From the NCBI GenBank assembly GCA_964016885.1, contig OZ024760.1, positions 7,254,001 to 7,318,000 on the forward strand: DNA of 64,000 bases, read 5' to 3'. The notes below the pieces were generated by a model. That model saw only the letters and a list, made by a program, of their open reading frames with translations. It was not told the origin of the DNA and did not search any database. A program made the translations under genes and the position numbers. The stretch comes from Eledone cirrhosa. Its lineage: Eukaryota. Positions 2,518 through 63,552 of the stretch are shown one piece after another (the first letter of the stretch is position 1; every line of letters starts with the position of its first letter).

Positions 2518-4053
2518 CTGTAAAAACAAACAAAAGGTGTTTTAAAACAACCATATTATCAACAAATGTATCAATTATATTAGAGGGTCGGACAACATGC
2601 TTTGCAGCATAGAGTTATGACCCCTTTACGTTCTGAGTTGAAATCGTGCCATGGTTAGCTTTGCCTTTCATCCTTAGAGGGAGGATAAAATAAAGCACCA
2701 GTAATGTATTGGGGTTGATTTAATCGACTTTCTCCTCTCCCCCAAAATTCCTGGCCCTCTGCCTAAAGTAGAAATCATTATTATTGCCGAGGTTAACTTT
2801 GCCTTTCATCCTTACGGGGATCGATAAAATAAAGTACCAGTAATGCACTGGGTATTTGCTGGCCTTGTGCCTAAAGTAGAAACAATTATTATATGAGGGT
2901 GGGTTGAAAAGTTAGTTGGCTAGCTATGCAGGAGTGATGCTAGAGCTGTGAAAACTTGCATACATTAAAATGACTGAAAGTACAACACCCCCACTGGACA
3001 GGACGCCAGCCCATCGCAGGGTTAAAGTCTGTCTCGAGCCCAAAGGCCCACTAGGCTTGAGCATATCCTGGTTTCTGTAGTGTTAAGTGACTGAGAGTAC
3101 AATCCCTCTCCCCCAGGACAGGATACCAGCCCATCACAGGGTTAAAGCCAGTCTTGAACCCAAACGCTTATCAGGCTGGTGTTTGCCCCGGTTTCTGTAG
3201 CATTAAGTGACAGAGAGTACAAGACCTCCCCGTGAACAAGACACCAGTCCATCGCAGGGTTACAGTCCCCAGCTATTGCTGATACTCATTTTCAGCTGAA
3301 TATACTAGAGCAACGTGAAATGAAGACCTTTGCTCCAAGAACAACAAACAACCCAAACCCAAGGTCACAGGAAATGAAGTGTTTTGCTCAAGAGCACAAC
3401 ACACACCCCAATCCAATCCAGGGGATCAAACCCACAGCTTTATTATCCCAAGTCCAACACCCTAACCTCTAGGCCATGCTCCTCCACTATATAACAAAGT
3501 TCTACCTACCCACCAACCTACATTCTTAACCACGGTCACCAAGATTTCTTCCAATATCTAGTAGCTGTCACATTAACAACATCTACCGACATTTAATCCC
3601 GAGTCCCACACCCAAACCACTATGCCACGCTAATTCACTCGTTAAGAATGACAGGGGGGAGGGGAATAGAATATTACAAACTAGTAAGTTAAGCAATTTA
3701 AATAATTGAAAAATTAAAATAAATTAGAGTTTTTTTTAGAATAATTTAAACAAGGTTATTCAATTGAAAACACAGGAAATATATTTTGAAAAAGGTGAAA
3801 ATAAGGATGTGGGAGAGGAATGTCTAGAAATAGGGTAGAAAATGATATATATATATATACAAAGAGAGAGAGAGAGAGATTGGCAAGATCTTGTGCGTTC
3901 AGTAAAACTTTTCAAAAGGCTTGCTGAATATACAAGCTGAAATCACTTATAGCCAGTCAGGATTTAACCTCTCTCTATACCCACTCTGCATCTCCTCATG
4001 CATTGAGTACTCCCATGATTAGTGGTCTCCTTGGTTTCAGCAGCACAGACAGA

Positions 4054-4090
<37 letters not shown>

Positions 4091-4091
<1 letters not shown>

Positions 4092-4723
4092 ACACAGTAA
4101 AGAGAGACAAACACAGATATATGACTATCTACATTCAAATCACAAGAGACAGAAACTGCTGGGGGTGAAGAAAATGCACTGTTCATTTTACTGATGTTTG
4201 TGCATTGCCCTATGTACTGTACATGCACTTTTTTGATGAGTTGTGGTGCACCTGGGCACTGTACACAATATTTCATTATTGTTATTGTATCATGACTCAT
4301 ACACTGTTCATTTTCCTGACATTTGTACATTACATTATTCTATGTACTATACATGCACCTTTGATGAGTTGTAGTGCACCTGAGCACTGTACACAATAAT
4401 TTCATTATTATTATTATTATTAAAATACTGACTAAAAATAGTACGGTTTACAGAACTCAAAAGGGTAAATCAGGATATACAAACCTACTATGATAACTAT
4501 CAAGCATCCAGACAGCTTTCGGGTAGAACTGTTTCGCAATTCAGTGAAGAGATATCCCAAAAGCTGTCTGGATGTTTGTTAGTTATCATAGTAGATTTGT
4601 ATATCTCCTTTTGGGTTCTGTAAACCGTACTATTTTTACTCAGTATTTTTTTTTGCCCTGGCGGTTTCTGTCCCTTGTGATTTGAACGTATATATCTGTA
4701 TTCGTCTCTCTTTACTGTGTTAT
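4091..4723. mobile_element. Older diverged fold-back element with internal insertion
   Basis: 4091-4166 pairs with ~4656-4723 and ~4423-4523 with ~4556-4648; (TA)n on the left. Confidence 0.6.
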
Positions 4724-4942
4724 AAGGCTCGGAAAATTTGTTTTTCCTTGAGCTAATTTGATTATAAAGGGACTAGAAGAGGAAGACCAAGGTTAACGTA
4801 TGTTGATGCCCTAAGGACAGACACTGGTCTGTTGGAGACGCAGGACATGGCAGCGATAATGAGGGACAAAGACCGCTGGAGAGAACTCGTCCATGGATCT
4901 CGGGAATTTTACCCGCCTTAGATAGATAGATAGATATATATT

Positions 4943-4977
<35 letters not shown>

Positions 4978-5268
4978 ATATATGGCTGTGAATTGGCAGA
5001 GTTGTTAGAACGTCTGATAAAATGTTTTATGGTATTCCTTCCGGCTTTCTACTCTTTAAGTTCAAATTCTGCTGAGATGAACAAAAAAAGTACCAGTCTA
5101 GTACTGGGGTGGATTCTTCCTCTATATCTCTTTCTCATTTCCTCTCTCTTACTTTCTATCTTTCTCTGGAAAAAATCTGGTTTACTCAGGCCTGGAGAGG
5201 GGGGGGGGGGCTCCGCCAGGCTTAAAATGCCCAAGAAACGCCCCTATGACTATCAGGAGTTATGGGAC

Positions 5269-5947: not shown

Positions 5948-6286
5948 GATCATCATCATTTCATTTTACGTCCACTTTTCCCTGCTTGCAAGGGTGGGAC
6001 GGGAACTGATTCTGGCTTGATTTCTACAGCTGGATGCCCTTCCTAACACCAACCTCATTTACAGTGAGTGCTGGGTGCTTTTTTGCCGTGGCGCCTCCAC
6101 GACCACTTTGCAGTGGAATGATAGGGACCCCAGTCCCTATCATCTCATTTCTACAGCTGAGTAAACTGGAGCAATGTGAAATAAAGTGTCTTGCTCAAGG
6201 AAACAACACATCACCCGGTCTGAGAATTGAACTCACAACCTTTCGATTGCAAGGTCAATGCTCTAACCACTAAGCCATGTGCCTCC
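5948..6286 (-). mobile_element. tRNA-derived SINE, family A, full length
   Basis: Near-identical to copies at 21855, 23177, 30698 and 61481. Confidence 0.9.
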
Positions 6287-21854: not shown

Positions 21855-22196
21855 GGAGGCACATGGCTTAGTGGTTAGAGCATTGGTCTTGCAATCGAAA
21901 GGTTGTGAGTTCAATTCTCAGACCAGGTGATGTGTTGTTTCCTTGAGCAAGACACTTTATTTCACATTGCTCCAGTTTACTCAGCTGTAGAAATGAGATG
22001 ATAGGGACTGGGGTCCATATCATACCACTGCAAAGTGGTCGTGGAGGTGCCACGACAAAAAAGCACCCAGCACTCACTGTAAATGAGGTTGGTGTTAGGA
22101 AGGGCATCCAACTGTAGAAATCAAGCCAGCATCAGTTCCCGTCCCACCCTTGCAAGCAGGGAAAAGCGGACGTAAAATGAATGATGATGATGATGA

Positions 22197-23176: not shown

Positions 23177-23523
23177 GGAGGCACATGGCTTAGTGGTTAG
23201 AGCATTGGCCTTGCAATCGAAAGGTTGTGAGTTCAATTCTCAGACCGGGCGATGTGTTGTTTCCTTGAGCAAGGCACTTTATTTCACATTGCTCCAGTTT
23301 ACTCAGCTGTAGAAATGAGATGATAGGGACTGGGGTCCCTATCATTCCACTGCAAAGTGGTCGTGGAGGTGCCACGGCAAAAAAGCACCCAGCACTCACT
23401 GTAAATGAGGTTGGTGTTAGGAAGGGCATCCAGCTGTAGAAATCAAGCCAGAATCAGTTCCCATCCCACCCTTGCAAGCAGGGAAAAGCGGATGTAAAAT
23501 GAAATGTTGATGATGATGATGAT
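23177..23523 (+). mobile_element. tRNA-derived SINE, family A, full length
   Basis: Same structure as the 21855 copy. Confidence 0.9.
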
Positions 23524-30697: not shown

Positions 30698-31074
30698 AGG
30701 CACATGGTTTAGTGGTTAGAGCATTGGCCTTGCAATCGAAAGGTTGTGAGTTCAATTCTCAGACCGGGTGATGTGTTGTTTCCTTGAGCAAGGCACTTTA
30801 TTTCACATTGCTCCAGTTTACTCAGCTGTAGAAATGAGATGATAGGGACCCCAGTCCCTATCATTCCACTGCAAAGTGGTCGTGGAGTTGCCAAAAAAGC
30901 ACCCAGCACTCACTGTAAATGAGGTTGGTGTTAGGAAGGGCATCCAGCTGTAGAAATCAAGCCAGAATCAGTTCCCGTATGAGCAAGACAAGGTCAGCTG
31001 ACTGGACACTGCCCACAACAGGACAACCCGTCTAACCCATGCTAGCGTGGAAAAACGGACGTAAAACGGTGATG

Positions 31075-32225: not shown

Positions 32226-33280
32226 ACTTTGCTTTGATTTTCTCTCACCTGTTGCGATCTTTTTCTCTTTGCTATTATTTTCTCTCACCTGTTGAGGTCT
32301 TCTTTTTTTTGCTTTGATTTTCTCTCACCTGTTGCGATCTTTTTCTCTTTGCTATGATTTTCCCTCGCCTGTAGAGGTCTTATCTTTGCTTTGATTTTCT
32401 TTCACCTGTAGAGGTCTTTTTCTCTTTGCTATGATTTTCTCTCACCTGTTGCGGTCTCTTTCTCTTTGCTTTGATTTTCTCTCACCTGTAGAGGTCTTTT
32501 TTTTCTTTGCTTTAATTTTCTCTCACCTGTTGAGGTCTTCTCCTCTTTGCTTTGATTTTCTCACACCTGTTGAGGTCTTCTCTTTGCTTTGATTTTCTCA
32601 CACCTATTGAGGTCTTCTCTCTTTGCTTTGATTTTCTCTCACCTGCTGAATTCTTCTTCTCTTTGCTATAATTTTCTCTCACCTGTTGAAGTCTTCTCTT
32701 TGCTATAATTTTCTCTCACCTGTTGAGGTCTTCTCTTTCCTATGATTTTCTCTCACCTGTTGAAGTCTTCTTCTCTTTGCTATAATTTTCTCTCACTTGT
32801 TGAAGTCTTCTTCTCTTTGCTATAATTTTCTCTCACCTATTAAGGTCTTTCTCTCTTTGCTTTGATTTTCTCTCACCTGTTGAGGTCTTTCTCTCTTTGC
32901 TTTGATTTTCTCTCACCTGTTGAGGTCTTTCTCTCTTTGCTTTGATTTTCTCTCACCTGTTGAGGTCTTTCTCTCTTTGCTTTGATTTTCTCTCACCTGT
33001 TGAGGTCTTTCTCTCTTTGCTTTGATTTTCTCTCACCTGTTGAGGTCTTTCTCTCTTTGCTTTGATTTTCTCTCACCTGTTGAGGTCTTTCTCTCTTTGC
33101 TTTGATTTTCTCTCACCTGTTGAGGTCTTTCTCTCTTTGCTTTGATTTTCTCTCACCTGTTGAGGTCTTTCTCTCTTTGCTTTGATTTTCTCACCTATTG
33201 AGGTCTTTTTCTCTTTGCTTTGATTTTCTCTCACCTGTCGAACTTTTTCTCTCTTTGCTTTGATTTTCTCTCACCTGTAG
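32226..33280. repeat. ~40-bp minisatellite
   Basis: Unit ttgctttgattttctctcacctgttgaggtctttctctct; homogeneous from 32.84 to 33.19 kb. Confidence 0.95.
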
Positions 33281-46732: not shown

Positions 46733-47344
46733 AGCATGGTGTCCGACCCTCTACCGATACTGCCATGGTGTCCGATCTTCTACCGATACTGCCATGGCGT
46801 CCGATCTTCTACCGATACTGCCATGGTGTCCGACCCTCTACCGATACTGCCATGGTGTCTGACCCACTACCGATACTGGCATGGTGTCCGACCCTCTACC
46901 GATACTGCCATGGTATCTGACCCACTACCGATACTGCCATGGCGTCCGATCTTCTACCGATACTGCCATGGTGTCCGACCCTCTACCGATACTGGCATGG
47001 TGTCCAACCCTCTACTGATACTGCCATGGCGTCCGACCCTCTACCGATACTGCCATGGTGTCCGACCCTCTACCGATACTGCCATGGTATCTGACCCACT
47101 ACCGATACTGGCATGGTGTCCAACCCTCTACCGATACTGCCATGGTATCTGACCCACTACCGATACTGGCATGGTGTCCAACCCTCTACCGATACTGCCA
47201 TGGTATCTGACCCACTACCGATACTGGCATGGTGTCCAACCCTCTACCGATACGGCCATGGTGTCTGACCCTCTACCAATACTGGCATGGTGTCTGACCA
47301 TCTACTGATACTGCCATGGTGTCTGACCCTCTACCGATACTGGC
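46733..47344. repeat. 29-bp minisatellite derived from a family B SINE head
   Basis: Unit ccatggtgtccgaccctctaccgatactg, continuous with the SINE at ~46580-46760. Confidence 0.93.
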
Positions 47345-53638: not shown

Positions 53639-53790
53639 CTGTGTGTAAGCGAGACATCTTAAAATTAAGATCTATCTCTAGGCAGGCCCATTAAGATTTT
53701 GTTAAGATGTAAACTTTAGGTTGACATGTCAAGATTTAGTTAAAACTTATCTTATATAAACGATATATAAACTATATCTTAAGTAGAAAT

Positions 53791-54555
53791 GTTAAGATAT
53801 AGTTAAGACTTATCTTTAGGTAGATGTTAAGATATAGTTAAGACTTATCTTTAGGTAGATGTTAAGATATAGTTAAGACTTATCTTTAGGTAGATGTTAA
53901 GATATAGTTAAGACTTATCTTTAGGTAGATGTTAAGATATAGTTAAGACTTATCTTTAGGTAGATGTTAAGATATAGTTAAGACTTATCTTTAGGTAGAT
54001 GTTAAGATATAGTTAAGACTTATCTTTAGGTAGATGTTAAGATATAGTTAAGACTTATCTTTAGGTAGATGTTAAGATATAGTTAAGACTTATCTTTAGG
54101 TAGATGTTAAGATAGAGTTAAGACTTATCTTTAGGTAGATGTTAAGATATAGTTAAGACTTATCTTTAGGTAGAGATGTTAAGATATAGTTAAGACTTAT
54201 CTTTAGGTAGAGATGTCAAGATCTAGTTAAGACTTATCTTTAGGTAGATGTTAAGATATAGTTAAGACTTATCTTTAGGTAGATGTTAAGATATAGTTAA
54301 GACTTATCTTTAGGTAGATGTTAAGATAGAGTTAAGACTTATCTTTAGGTAGATGTTAAGATTTAGTTAAGACTTATCTTTAGGTAGATGTTAAGATATA
54401 GTTAAGACTTATCTTTAGGTAGATGTTAACATATAGTTAAGACTTATCTTTAGGTAGATGTTAAGATAGAGTTAAGACTTATCTTTAGGTAGATGTCAAG
54501 ATTTAGTTAAGACTTATCTTAAGTAGAGATGTTAAGATATAGTTAAGACTTATCT
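53791..54555. repeat. 35-bp minisatellite
   Basis: Unit gttaagatatagttaagacttatctttaggtagat. Confidence 0.95.
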
Positions 54556-55624: not shown

Positions 55625-56752
55625 AGTGGTGGCGAGGAGTAGATGTGGGTGTGGTGTAGGGGTGGTGGTGGCGAGGAGTAGATGTGGGTGTGGTGTAGGG
55701 GTGGTGGTGGCGAGGAGTAGATGTGGGTGTGGTGTAGTGGTGGTGGTGGCGAGGAGTAGATGTGGGTGTGGTGTAGTGGTGGTGGTGGCGAAGAGTAGAT
55801 GTGGGTGTGGTGTAGTGGTGGTGGTGGCGAGGAGTAGATGTGGGTGTGGTGTAGGGGTGGTGGTGGCGAGGAGTAGATGTGGGTGTGGTGTAGGGGTGGT
55901 GGTGGCGAGGAGTAGATGTGGGTGTGGTGTAGTGGTGGTGGTGGCGAGGAGTAGATGTGGGTGTGGTGTAGTGGTGGTGGTGGCGAGGAGTAGATGTGGG
56001 TGTGGTGTAGTGGTGGTGGTGGCGAGGAGTAGATGTGGGTGTGGTGTAGGGGTGGTGGTGGCGAGGAGTAGATGTGGGTGTGGTGTAGTGGTGGTGGTGG
56101 CGAGGAGTAGATGTGGGTGTGGTGTAGTGGTGGTGGTGGCGAGGAGTAGATGTGGGTGTGGTGTAGGGGTGGTGGTGGCGAGGAGTAGATGTGGGTGTGG
56201 TGTAGGGGTGGTGGTGGCGAGGAGTAGATGTGGGTGTGGTGTAGTGGTGGTGGTGGCGAGGAGTAGATGTGGGTGTGGTGTAGTGGTGGTGGTGGCGAAG
56301 AGTAGATGTGGGTGTGGTGTAGTGGTGGTGGTGGCGAGGAGTAGATGTGGGTGTGGTGTAGGGGTGGTGGTGGCGAGGAGTAGATGTGGGTGTGGTGTAG
56401 GGGTGGTGGTGGCGAGGAGTAGATGTGGGTGTGGTGTAGTGGTGGTGGTGGCGAGGAGTAGATGTGGGTGTGGTGTAGTGGTGGTGGTGGCGAGGAGTAG
56501 ATGTGGGTGTGGTGTAGTGGTGGTGGTGGCGAGGAGTAGATGTGGGTGTGGTGTAGGGGTGGTGGTGGCGAGGAGTAGATGTGGGTGTGGTGTAGTGGTG
56601 GTGGTGGCGAGGAGTAGATGTGGGTGTGGTGTAGTGGTGGTGGTGGCGAAGAGTAGATGTGGGTGTGGTGTAGTGGTGGTGGTGGCGAGGAGTAGATGTG
56701 GGTGTGGTGTAGTGGTGGTGGTGGCGAGGAGTAGATGTGGGTGTGGTGTAGG
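55625..56752. repeat. 39-bp G-rich minisatellite
   Basis: Unit gtggtggtggcgaggagtagatgtgggtgtggtgtag(t/g)g. Confidence 0.95.
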
Positions 56753-57928
56753 GGAGGGGTGTTAGAATATTAGTAAATATGTAGTGGTGGTGGTGGTGGT
56801 GGTAAGGAGTAGAGTGGGTGTGGTGTAGGGTAGGGCGAGTTAGTATGTTGATAAATGTGTTGTGGGGGGATGGACCCTGTAAAAGACAGTGGTGGATTAG
56901 TATATTAGTACTTTAGTATACGGTATGATGGTGAATTGGTATGATATTTACTAATTAAAACTAATTAAATGACTGATGTTATTATGTATATAAACATACG
57001 CAGTGGATTGACAGTAATTGGTAGAGCGTTGAACAACATGCTTCACGGCGTAGTGTTACGGCCCTTTGTGTTTTGAGTTAAAATCCCGCTGTGGTTAACT
57101 TTGCTTTTCATCCTTACAAGGTAGATAAATAAAGTACCAGTAATGCACTGGGGTCAATTTAATTGACTTTCCCATCTCCCCTTCAAATAGCTAGCCTTGC
57201 GCCTAAATCAGAAACCATTATCTTATACATAATGATTGGAGAACTGCAAGACTATGTCTTCTTTATTTTTTATTATCACGTTATTAAAATAAGTTTGATT
57301 ACTTTGAATAAATCATGAATGAATATTATATAATTTATCTACTAAATTTCGTAGCTCTTGATTAAACATAAATAATCTTATATATAAATTATATTGCTTA
57401 TTTCAAGATTCACTTCTTTAAAAATGTTTAAATGTCAACACTTCTGTTATATTTCCGTTGCTAATCTCATTTTCTCCTTTTCCATTTTCATAACAGTTCA
57501 CTGTAATGCAGTTTATATATAATATCGTCTTTTTTAAATGTATCATGGATTACTTTACTGATTACAGAAGACAGTGTAACACAGCCTCTTTTTAATTTCT
57601 GTGCATATTGTCAATTTACTTTTCACTCGACGTATCATATCTACATGCATATATACATGCGTATAATATCAATTTGCACACTACACATGGTAGCAGAAAT
57701 CCAAGTGGAGAGTGGTTTTTCTGCTAGTGTATATAAAAATATATTGGAGGGCGAGGCAGTGAATTGGCGGAGTCATGGAGTCGTTAGAGCGTCAGATAGA
57801 ATGGTTTATAGTATTTGTTACAGCTACTTGTGTTCTGAGTTCAAATCCCGATTCTGTCAAGGTCCACTTTACCTTTCATCCTTTACCAAGGCTGTCAATA
57901 AAGAAAGCACCATCCTACTGATGGTGCA

Positions 57929-60059: not shown

Positions 60060-60490
60060 TGATGATCAGAGATCAAATTGATTGAAACAGAAATCAAGCT
60101 CACTGAGATAACAATTAAACTGACTCCAGACATCACTTAAAATCAATAAATGATCACAAATCAAATTCACTGAAACAGAGATTAAACTGACTCCAGACAT
60201 CACTTAGAATCGATAGATGATCACAGATCAAACTCACTGAAACAGAGATTAAACTGACTCCAGGCATCACTTAGAATCGATAGATGATCACAGATCAAAC
60301 TCACTGAAACAGAGATTAAACTGACTCCAGACATCACTTAGAATCGATAGATGATCACAGATCAAACTCACTGAAACAGAGATTAAACTGACTCCAGACA
60401 TCACTTAGAATCGATAGTTGATCACAGATCAAACTCACTGAAACAGAGATTAAACTGACTCCAGACATCACACAATCAATAGATGATCAA
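60060..60490. repeat. 67-bp minisatellite
   Basis: Unit attaaactgactccagacatcacttagaatcgatagatgatcacagatcaaactcactgaaacagag. Confidence 0.93.
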
Positions 60491-61480: not shown

Positions 61481-61821
61481 ATCATCATCATCATCATCAT
61501 TTCATTTTACGTCTGCTTTTCCCTGCTTGCAAGGGTGGGACGAGAACTGATTCTGGCTTGATTTCTACAGCTGGATACCCTTCCTAACACCAACCTCATT
61601 TACAGTGAGTGCTGGGTGCTTTTTTGCCGTGGCACCTCCACGACCACTTTACAGTGGAATGATATGGACCCCAGTCCCTATCATCTCATTTCTACAGCTG
61701 AGTAAACTGGAGCAATGTGAAATAAAGTGTCTTGCTCAAGGAAACAACACATCACCTGGTCTGAGAATTGAACTCACAACCTTTCGATTGCAAGGCCAAT
61801 GCTCTAACCACTAAGCCATGT
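61481..61821 (-). mobile_element. SINE family A
   Basis: Near-identical to the 5948-6286 copy. Confidence 0.9.
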
Positions 61822-61824
61822 ATG

Positions 61825-61892
<68 letters not shown>

Positions 61893-62180
61893 CAAATAAC
61901 GAAACGAAATTAAATTTCGTTTTGCTTCTAACTCACTTTTGTATGACTGACGCTTAAACAATTAAGTTAAAAGTGTACATCTACATATGTATACGGAAAT
62001 ATTAGTATGCATATAAATACACACATGTATACATATGTACATGTACTGAGTTTTTCACTGGACACTTTACTGTGAGTGTCCAGCTAGTCTGTATGTAACC
62101 AAACAGACAAACCGGGTTTTAGAGTCATACGGGTTTTCAAGGAAACACATTTCCTCTATTCTCCAGAGAGCCAGACAGGA

Positions 62181-62223
62181 ATATTGGACTAGTTTCGATG
62201 TTATTACATCTCATCAGCAATAT
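62181..62223 (-). ncRNA. Minimal type I hammerhead ribozyme (inverted copy, same strand as ABAT)
   Basis: Exact reverse complement of 63034-63076. Confidence 0.87.
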
Positions 62224-63033
62224 ATACCCATCTTCCGGCTTCTCTAGAGAATCGTAAAAGCACATATCGTTATATGCTTTTTCTATGAAAATTAGTAGTG
62301 GGCAGACTAATTTGCATAGAACGTGAGTCATTGTACGCACCGGTTCAGCGGAAACGATAAAAACAAATAACGAAACGAAATTAAATTTCGTTTCGCTTCT
62401 AACTCACTTTTGTATGACTGACACTTAAACAATTAAGTTAAAAGTGTACATCTACATATGTATACGGAAATATTAGTATGCATATAAATACACACATGTA
62501 TACATATGTACATGTACTGAGTTTTTCCTGGACACTTTACTGTGAGTGTCCAGCTAGTCTGTATGTAACCAAACAGACAAACCGGGTTTTAGAGTCATAC
62601 GGGTTTTCAAGGAAACACATTTCCTCTATTCTCCAATATGTTTCCTTGAAAACCCGTATGACTCTAAAACCCGGTTTGTCTGTTTGGTTACATACAGACT
62701 AGCTGGACACTCACAGTAAAGTGTCCAGTGAAAAACTCAGTACATGTACATATGTATACATGTGTGTATTTATATGCATACTAATATTTCCGTATACATA
62801 TGTAGATGTACACTTTTAACTTAATTGTTTAAGCGTCAGTCATACAAAAGTGAGTTAGAAGCGAAACGAAATTTAATTTCGTTTCGTTATTTGTTTTTAT
62901 CGTTTCCGCTGAACCGGTGCGTACAATGACTCACGTTCTATGCAAATTAGTCTGCCCACTACTAATTTTCATAGAAAAAGCATCTAACGATATGTGCTTT
63001 TACGATTCTCTAGAGAAGCCGGAAGATGGGTAT

Positions 63034-63076
63034 ATATTGCTGATGAGATGTAATAACATCGAAACTAGTCCAATAT
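63034..63076 (+). ncRNA. Minimal type I hammerhead ribozyme
   Basis: ATATTG-CTGATGA-GATGT aata ACATC-GAAA-CTAG-TC-CAATAT: perfect 6-bp stem I, 5-bp stem II, intact core, palindromic ACTAGT stem III, GUC site (cut after 63070). Confidence 0.87.
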
Positions 63077-63291
63077 TCCTGTCTGGCTCTCTGGAGAATA
63101 GAGGAAATGTGTTTCCTTGAAAACCCGTATGACTCTAAAACCCGGTTTGTCTGTTTGGTTACATACAGACTAGCTGGACACTCACAGTAAAGTGTCCAGT
63201 GAAAAACTCAGTACATGTACATATGTATACATGTGTGTATTTATATGCATACTAATATTTCCGTATACATATGTAGATGTACACTTTTAAC

Positions 63292-63384
<93 letters not shown>

Positions 63385-63552
63385 TGAGATATGATAAACC
63401 CAGCCTAATCCAAGCCAGAAATAGTTCCAGCTGCTGTCTTTGTAGAACAATAAATATCTCACTTGCTTCTTTCCAGGAGGAAATGGTAAATTTTCTCCTA
63501 TTGATTCCTGATTTGGTGTATTGGAAGAATTCTATGAGACAAAAGACACAGA

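What the first reader, a model, noticed from the sequence alone, without database searches (positions are those of the whole stretch)
61887..63297. ~470-bp non-coding monomer with a perfect minimal hammerhead, in tandem and then folded back: candidate retrozyme
Seen: about 1.6 head-to-tail copies of a ~470-bp unit, then an inverted ~660-bp copy, nearly mutation-free and flanked by (TA)n. Each orientation carries ATATTG-CTGATGA-GATGTaataACATC-GAAA-CTAG-TC-CAATAT, an intact type I hammerhead with a palindromic stem III. Known: minimal type I hammerheads that cleave as dimers occur in Penelope-like elements and in metazoan non-LTR retrozymes, which give small circular RNAs. Inference: this is a young non-autonomous family copied from a multimeric or circular RNA. 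The left arm stops about 21 nt short of the next cleavage-site equivalent, and the fold-back junction contains TCCAATAT, the sequence spanning the cut site.
Basis: partly seen in the sequence, partly recalled or inferred. Interest (0 to 1): 0.9.

Follow-up and report, generated by a model that had tools for sequence, protein, structure and literature searches.

The report
Two-armed hammerhead retrozyme with Penelope footprint
This is one young copy of a protein-free 471-base repeat carrying a predicted self-cutting RNA motif, present over 4,000 times in this animal genome, usually as two back-to-back arms that end at two fixed points inside TA repeats, and it was likely pasted in from a single, probably circular, RNA by a Penelope-type retrotransposon enzyme.

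Summary
Observation confirmed: a 1.59-unit arm (-) and a 1.41-unit arm (+) of a 471-bp non-coding unit lie between (TA)n runs, each with an intact type I hammerhead. The core pattern occurs 4,219 times genome-wide (control 0). A homologous 424-bp family dominates a second pattern's 16,809 matches and supplies compensatory changes in stems I and II. In 67 sampled elements, all 50 simple two-armed ones point their 3' ends outward, and 109 of 116 outer ends fall at two fixed sites about 70 nt apart, one of each per element (40 of 42). An autonomous RT+GIY-YIG Penelope-like element in the same genome leaves the same footprint. Units and arms of one insertion share one haplotype, which favours one monomer template, likely a circle. 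No autonomous partner with homologous ends was found; cleavage and circles are untested. Verdict: new member of the known metazoan non-LTR retrozymes, with footprint evidence for Penelope mobilisation. This scan reported the same pattern before on other DNA.

The parts
61821..61888 (.). (TA)n target microsatellite, left side
   Evidence: TRF
61886..62635 (-). Left arm, 1.59 tandem units read on the minus strand; its 3' end (61886) is the 'outer' fixed site, unit position 266
61886..61959 (-). 74-nt 'tail' (unit positions 193-266) present at the end of this arm and not at the end of the other; includes the hairpin just before the outer site
62181..62223 (-). Type I hammerhead, minus-strand copy; predicted cut between 62187 and 62186
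62632..62639 (.). Inversion junction where the 5' ends of the two arms meet (TCCAATAT on +)
62635..63297 (+). Right arm, 1.41 tandem units; its 3' end (63297) is the 'inner' fixed site, unit position 192
62635..63105 (+). One full 471-bp unit, 36% GC, longest ATG ORF inside the arm 64 aa, strongly structured (z = -10.2)
62819..62834 (+). Small hairpin whose loop holds the inner fixed end site (62826-62831) in the internal unit
62862..62900 (+). Hairpin (62862-62886) followed by the outer fixed end site (62900) in the internal unit; the sequence across this site is conserved in the 424-bp sister family
62940..62947 (+). ATGCAAAT octamer about 100 nt upstream of the hammerhead, inside a hairpin; intact in 147 of 150 units; candidate promoter element (inferred)
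63034..63076 (+). Type I hammerhead, plus-strand copy: stem I 6 bp, stem II 4 bp, palindromic ACTAGT stem III, GUC triplet; predicted cut at 63070/63071
63297..63326 (.). (TA)n target microsatellite, right side
   Evidence: TRF

Best explanation
This is one insertion of a non-coding hammerhead retrozyme family that was likely copied from a single 471-nt RNA unit, probably a circle, by the reverse transcriptase and GIY-YIG endonuclease of a Penelope-like element acting in trans. Shown by the sequence: thousands of copies; head-to-head arms with 3' ends outward; two fixed end sites; (TA)n targets; 12-16-bp target duplications at two unique sites; one haplotype per insertion; covarying hammerhead stems. 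Inferred steps: (1) a source locus with two or more hammerheads on one strand is transcribed, perhaps from the octamer region; (2) two hammerheads pair through the palindromic stem III and cut out a 471-nt monomer that is ligated to a circle; (3) a Penelope-like protein, probably a dimer, binds the structured region around unit positions 190-290 and nicks both strands of a (TA)n tract; (4) one DNA end primes at unit position 266 and the other at 192-197, both U/A-rich sites; (5) both enzymes copy round the unit for a variable distance and the two cDNAs are joined, mostly with 0-4 nt overlap; (6) a few insertions later grow into arrays of 15-31 units by local unequal exchange.
For: Footprint: 50 of 50 simple two-armed elements are minus-then-plus; 109 of 116 3' ends lie at 189-198 or 263-266; of 42 elements with both ends at these sites 40 have one of each (p 4e-10); 86 of those 109 ends abut a TA-rich 20-mer. 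The 424-bp sister family (62% identical) ends at the homologous two sites, 12 of 12 two-armed elements in the same orientation. Positive control: an element with a 938-aa RT+GIY-YIG frame ends at two sites 68 nt apart in (TA)n, one of each in two-armed copies. PMC8557442 (passages) describes partial tandems, an inverted 5'-truncated copy, a tail and microsatellite bias as PLE features; PMC11167929 (parts 1-2 of 4) shows two internal RT start sites, cutting of both strands and a predicted dimer. One template: in short loci at positions covered by 3 or more units, 121 variants are in all units, 12 in some, 174 in one; 158 variants are fixed in both arms against 2 arm-specific; arms differ at 21 of 1,850 informative sites against a median 32% between loci, with 42 haplotype groups among 67 elements. 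Long arrays show the opposite (14 partial, 5 fixed), so mosaic daughters expected from linear array transcripts are nearly absent (1 partial of 212 lineage-variant states). Arms run across the cut site without a scar, and 5' ends do not pile up there. RNA-level structure: z -9 to -12 in both families; 6 of 12 hammerhead pairs change on both sides.
Against: No autonomous element with ends homologous to the unit was found among 60 GIY-YIG loci fetched (of 150 scored, 10,597 candidates), other PLE pieces met in flanks, or three further hammerhead-pattern searches. The tail is 69-74 nt, longer than the 30-40 bp in PMC8557442, although autonomous elements here show about 30-90 nt. Cleavage, circles and transcription are untested; in the Li preprint 8 of 9 predicted dimers did not cleave in vitro, and PMC11167929 found hammerhead cleavage dispensable for insertion. 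One haplotype per locus also fits a linear transcript from a homogeneous source array, or gene conversion. 22 of 212 lineage-variant states were single-unit, and one locus (L119) has 4 arm mismatches in 42 sites. The antisense strand folds almost as well (z -8.6), so folding energy alone does not mark the RNA strand. The isolated hammerhead's minimum-energy fold is not the active one.
Confidence: 0.7

Rival explanations
1. Penelope-like mobilisation, but from uncleaved linear multimeric transcripts of a few homogeneous source arrays; the hammerhead is inherited from a PLE end and need not cut.
For: Arrays of 15 and 31 units exist. In PMC11167929 unprocessed RNA was the main insertion substrate and no RNA-seq reads ended at the cut site. 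No RNA circle was seen here.
Against: The long arrays sampled are mosaics (14 partial variants) whereas dispersed insertions are not; 42 haplotype groups among 67 elements would need many separately homogenised sources; the hammerhead is conserved with compensatory changes across families.
Confidence: 0.19
2. A LINE-type enzyme copies the RNA, and the inversion is twin priming of the L1 kind (recalled model, not read here).
For: Twin priming gives the same arm orientation (recalled); LINE reverse-transcriptase frames are common near these loci; target duplications of 12-16 bp would fit.
Against: No poly(A) or simple-repeat tail belongs to the unit; both outer ends are fixed internal sites and the arms overlap in sequence by hundreds of bases; autonomous PLEs of this genome show the same two-site footprint in the same target.
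Confidence: 0.05
3. A satellite-like repeat spread and folded back at the DNA level (local amplification of a solo PLE end, unequal exchange, repair-borne inversions), or a foldback/MITE-type DNA transposon.
For: The Li preprint proposes local amplification of solo PLE ends; long arrays show local duplication patterns.
Against: Dispersed young loci on many chromosomes each have their own random junction but the same two unequal outer ends; the ends are not a terminal inverted repeat pair of equal phase; single-armed copies with random 5' ends exist (16 of 67).
Confidence: 0.05
4. The fold-back is an assembly or chimeric-read artefact.
For: Perfect inverted repeats next to microsatellites are artefact-prone (general knowledge).
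Against: Arms differ by 3 substitutions and 1 gap; fixed unequal ends recur in 40 loci; autonomous PLEs show the same form.
Confidence: 0.01

Closest known systems
Metazoan non-LTR retrozymes (Cervera & de la Pena 2020, PMC7229834; passages and Discussion read)
   Same: Non-coding tandem units of a few hundred bases, GC under 45%, one type I hammerhead per unit, target duplications longer than 4 bp; PLEs proposed there as mobilisers and circles as templates.
   Different: Unit is 471 bp (they give 150-450). Most copies here are two-armed with two fixed ends and a tail in (TA)n; the words 'inverted', 'microsatellite' and 'cephalopod' occur 0 times in that main text. Expression and circles were shown there and not tested here.
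Li, Clavereau & Pollet 2026 preprint, 10.64898/2026.07.22.740005 (parts 1-3 of 5 read; supplements not seen)
   Same: Argues that animal retrozymes are non-autonomous PLE derivatives.
   Different: Evidence there is co-occurrence and pLTR homology, mainly in vertebrates, with local amplification as the model; no insertion-footprint analysis ('tail' 0, 'inverted' only in a reference). Here the footprint is shown and pLTR homology was not found.
Endonuclease-bearing Penelope-like elements (Craig et al. 2021, PMC8557442, passages; Frangieh et al. 2024, PMC11167929, parts 1-2 of 4)
   Same: Partial tandems, inverted 5'-truncated copy, tail at one end from two RT start sites, microsatellite targets, hammerhead with palindromic stem III upstream of the start sites.
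   Different: No ORF; the unit joins the tail region straight to the promoter/hammerhead region; tail about 70 nt rather than 30-40.

Membership tests
Metazoan non-LTR retrozyme | Type I hammerhead in each unit | tested here: met
   Core intact in 171 of 175 units; 6 of 12 pairs with changes on both sides across 13 distinct variants; Rfam HH9 32.9 bits, below gathering
Metazoan non-LTR retrozyme | Tandem units of a few hundred bases, low GC, multi-copy | tested here: met
   471 bp, 36% GC; 4,219 core matches, arrays up to 31 units
Metazoan non-LTR retrozyme | No protein coding | tested here: met
   Longest ATG ORFs 74 aa (across the junction) and 64 aa
Metazoan non-LTR retrozyme | Target-site duplication longer than 4 bp where visible | tested here: met
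   12 bp at L015 and 13-16 bp at L047, the two clear cases at non-microsatellite sites; elsewhere hidden by (TA)n
Metazoan non-LTR retrozyme | Lacks LTRs, primer binding site and polypurine tract | tested here: inconclusive
   No LTR pair around a unique interior in 67 elements; primer binding site and purine tract not searched for
Metazoan non-LTR retrozyme | Self-cleavage in vitro | not testable with these tools
   Needs transcription and cleavage assay
Metazoan non-LTR retrozyme | Expressed as monomeric circular RNA | not testable with these tools
   No RNA run could be laid; only indirect haplotype evidence
Penelope-like element (autonomous) | RT plus GIY-YIG ORF | tested here: not met
   No ORF over 74 aa; so not an autonomous PLE
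PLE-mobilised element | Partial tandem plus inverted 5'-truncated copy | tested here: met
   50 of 67 elements minus-then-plus, none plus-then-minus, one compound
PLE-mobilised element | Two fixed 3' end sites giving a tail at one end | tested here: met
   109 of 116 ends; 40 of 42 mixed pairs; tail 69-74 nt, control PLE 68 nt
PLE-mobilised element | Microsatellite/AT-rich target | tested here: met
   86 of 109 fixed-site ends abut TA-rich 20-mers; same target for PLE families here
PLE-mobilised element | Sequence homology to the pLTR of an autonomous PLE | tested here: inconclusive
   None found in a partial sample; only the palindromic stem III layout is shared

The most novel reading that the evidence does not exclude
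A Penelope-like protein dimer binds one small ribozyme-made RNA circle and copies it by rolling-circle reverse transcription from both nicked strands of a (TA)n target at once, starting at two fixed sites; the genome holds some 20,000 hammerheads of at least three related families spread this way, so circular RNA is a routine template for Penelope-type integration and the hammerhead's job in these elements is to make that circle.
Probability: 0.5. Interest if true: 0.75.

Novelty: new member of a known kind. Interest (0 to 1): 0.5.

Why it matters
Two questions are left open in the papers read: which enzyme moves animal retrozymes, and whether their circles are the templates. This family answers the first by footprint and makes both testable: it names two exact priming sites, a target, a 471-nt template and several candidate autonomous elements with intact frames in the same genome. 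The one-haplotype-per-insertion pattern also bears on how Penelope-like elements form their tandem and inverted structures, which PMC8557442 lists as unresolved.

Tried and rejected
Rfam at gathering threshold: no hammerhead; the microRNA-family matches are all below gathering and follow the long hairpin. Fold-back tied to the cut site: rejected; the excess of 5' ends at unit positions 424-471 in the full set (25 against about 12 per bin) comes from loci chosen for holding a full-length match. Partner search: GIY-YIG scan, 60 loci fetched, end comparison, pattern searches for other hammerheads with the same stem III and follow-up fetches gave sister retrozyme families and decayed PLE ends but no homologous pLTR. 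A short likeness between one PLE family's 3' region and the 424-bp family was not confirmed by BLAST and was dropped. A Pfam accession recalled from memory was not in the library. Sequencing runs: no RNA holder listed. Contigs of four other coded organisms cover part of the unit at 90-99%; their organisms are unnamed and I draw no conclusion on range. No tRNA gene in 61600-63400. Newt satellite-2 octamer promoter: recalled; the search listed no paper that I read on it. Literature searches for a prior report of this footprint in retrozymes: (0 papers with 'retrozyme' and 'twin priming'); PMC13282606 has 0 occurrences of hammerhead, ribozyme or retrozyme. Subscription journals, Repbase and Dfam were not searched.

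Full report
Observation. The window is G000:C21:7254001-7318000 of a 3.0-Gb assembly; my impression that it is an octopus is recalled and comes from no call. The element runs from 61886 to 63297 between (TA)n tracts. Taking 62635-63105 as unit positions 1-471, the left arm reads on the minus strand from position 458 to 266 (1.59 units) and the right arm on the plus strand from 1 to 192 (1.41 units). The arms differ by 3 substitutions and 1 gap over 662 bp. Each arm holds one identical 43-nt type I hammerhead (62181-62223 minus, 63034-63076 plus). Rfam's HH9 model matches it at 32.9 bits, under the gathering score of 52. The longest ATG frames are 74 and 64 aa. With one hammerhead per strand this copy cannot release a cut-to-cut monomer.

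Family size. An exact core pattern matches 4,219 times, control 0; the first 100 listed matches fall into 26 loci, which extrapolates to roughly 1,100-1,900 loci (a rough estimate). Three subfamilies differ at 15-47 positions, and a fourth is about 87% identical. A pattern with a different core base gives 16,809 matches, control 14; the listed ones belong to a 424-bp family that aligns with the window unit at 62% over its length. A third pattern gives 1,662 matches, mostly an older branch of that family.

Hammerhead. Across 13 distinct variants from these families the catalytic core and stem III are invariant, 93.6% of cells pair, and 6 of 12 pairs change on both sides; slid controls pair at 15-43%. 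The changes trace to a few lineage splits, so they count as a few events, not 23. The triplet before the cut is GUC, GUU or GUA in these variants. Stem III is the palindrome ACTAGT with a 2-nt loop; PMC4209133 and PMC6765202 (passages) say such motifs cleave as dimers, often weakly. The isolated motif does not fold into the active form at minimum energy. The whole unit folds far better than shuffles (z -10.2 linear, -9.2 circular; sister family -12.4; antisense -8.6), with the same order of hairpins in both families.

Insertion footprint. I mapped 67 elements from 66 loci, after dropping 11 repeat views of the same places, the second half of one array (L032), one duplicated locus (L093), L120 and L121. 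The loci were chosen by best score or by order along contig 1, not at random. Fifty elements have two arms, all minus-then-plus so that the hammerhead-sense 3' ends face out; 16 have one arm; one is compound. Of 116 outer ends, 55 lie at 189-198, 54 at 263-266 and 7 elsewhere. Of 49 two-armed elements with both ends readable, 40 have one of each site, 2 have two inner sites, none has two outer sites and 7 have one end elsewhere. Inner 5' ends are spread over the unit; in the position-ordered subset 1 of 42 lies near the cut site. Junctions mostly show 0-4 nt overlap. Two insertions at unique sites show 12-bp and 13-16-bp target duplications. The sister family ends at the homologous sites (28 of 35 ends; 12 of 12 two-armed elements in the same orientation), and the sequence across the outer site is conserved between families.

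Control from autonomous elements. The genome has 10,597 GIY-YIG candidates, 150 scored. Four frames tested carry RT and GIY-YIG matches. The family of the 938-aa frame ends at two sites 68 nt apart, in (TA)n, with one of each in two-armed copies; other families show two end sites about 30-90 nt apart in the same target. Several carry hammerhead-like folds with a 6-bp palindromic stem III. This matches the PLE structure in PMC8557442 and the two internal RT start sites, two-strand cutting and predicted dimer in PMC11167929. No PLE end homologous to the unit was found, so the partner is unnamed.

Template. Arms longer than 227-301 nt must cross the cut site, so the template was a circle or an uncleaved multimer. 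Variants tell these apart in part. In short loci, at positions covered by three or more units, 121 variants are in every unit, 174 in one, and only 12 in some; 158 are fixed in both arms (25 not seen fixed at other sampled loci) against 2 arm-specific; lineage variants are fixed in 189 cases, partial in 1 and single in 22. Arms of one locus differ at 21 of 1,850 informative sites, other loci at a median 32%; the own arm was strictly closest in 14 of 44 cases and tied in 21; there are 42 haplotype groups among 67 elements. The long arrays are mosaics instead (14 partial, 5 fixed), yet the 31-unit array keeps both fixed ends and the inversion, so it is an insertion that grew later. A single-unit bottleneck at each insertion is the simplest reading. 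A homogeneous linear source or gene conversion is not excluded.

Comparison and verdict. It meets every testable sequence criterion of the metazoan non-LTR retrozymes of PMC7229834, where PLEs are named as strong candidates for mobilisation, and agrees with the 2026 preprint linking retrozymes to PLE ends (supplements not seen, and they may list relevant families). Neither text, as read, describes the two-armed, two-site footprint, and my searches found no such report. Earlier notes of this scan describe the same pattern in other windows of this and other genomes; I reached the reading before opening them and count them as no support. Class: new member of a known kind. Interest 0.5: the class is known, while the footprint and haplotype pattern make the mobiliser and circle questions directly testable.

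Noticed in passing
G000 genome-wide; e.g. L123:1450-5600, L137, L138: A 424-bp sister retrozyme family (most of 16,809 pattern matches) and an older branch (most of 1,662 matches) share the layout, the two fixed ends and the (TA)n target.
   Followed up: yes
L071, L078, L088, L089 (3' repeats of RT+GIY-YIG elements): Several PLE families with intact or long frames carry hammerhead-like folds whose core is altered (TTGAAAA or TTGATAA in place of CTGAnGA) but keep stems I-II and a palindromic ACCGGT stem III; they spread with an apparently inactive or non-canonical ribozyme.
   Followed up: partly
window 61661-61820 (-), also 21862-22021, 6120-6279, 23184-23343, 30703-30849, 555-707: A young tRNA-headed SINE (Rfam tRNA hit at 21864-21921) starts right at the (TA)n tract that received the element; copies in the window are 94-99% identical.
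   Followed up: partly
L019/L120 (C1:67842143-67844900): A young copy abuts an older 87% subfamily copy, the two joined at the hairpin before the outer site; the older subfamily has a compensatory A-U to U-A change in stem II.
   Followed up: partly
L092 and L093; L138:1293-2478 and 3879-5064: Whole two-armed elements duplicated with the same junction 17.7 kb and 2.6 kb apart: local segmental duplication or assembly duplication.
   Followed up: no
L032-L033 (C1:5738093-5752746), L034: Arrays of about 31 and 15 units that keep both fixed ends and the inversion but show variants shared by subsets of units.
   Followed up: partly
L015:2395 onward: An insertion whose second arm is only about 9 nt long, between 12-bp target duplications.
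   Followed up: partly
window 60093-60489; 32227-33278; 46735-47342; 53789-54555; 55626-56828: Minisatellite arrays with periods 67, 40, 29, 35 and 39 bp.
   Followed up: no
L031:2660-3650: A PLE 3' part of another clade lies in the (TA)n next to a retrozyme fragment; PLE ends, retrozymes and SINEs pile up in the same TA tracts at many loci.
   Followed up: partly
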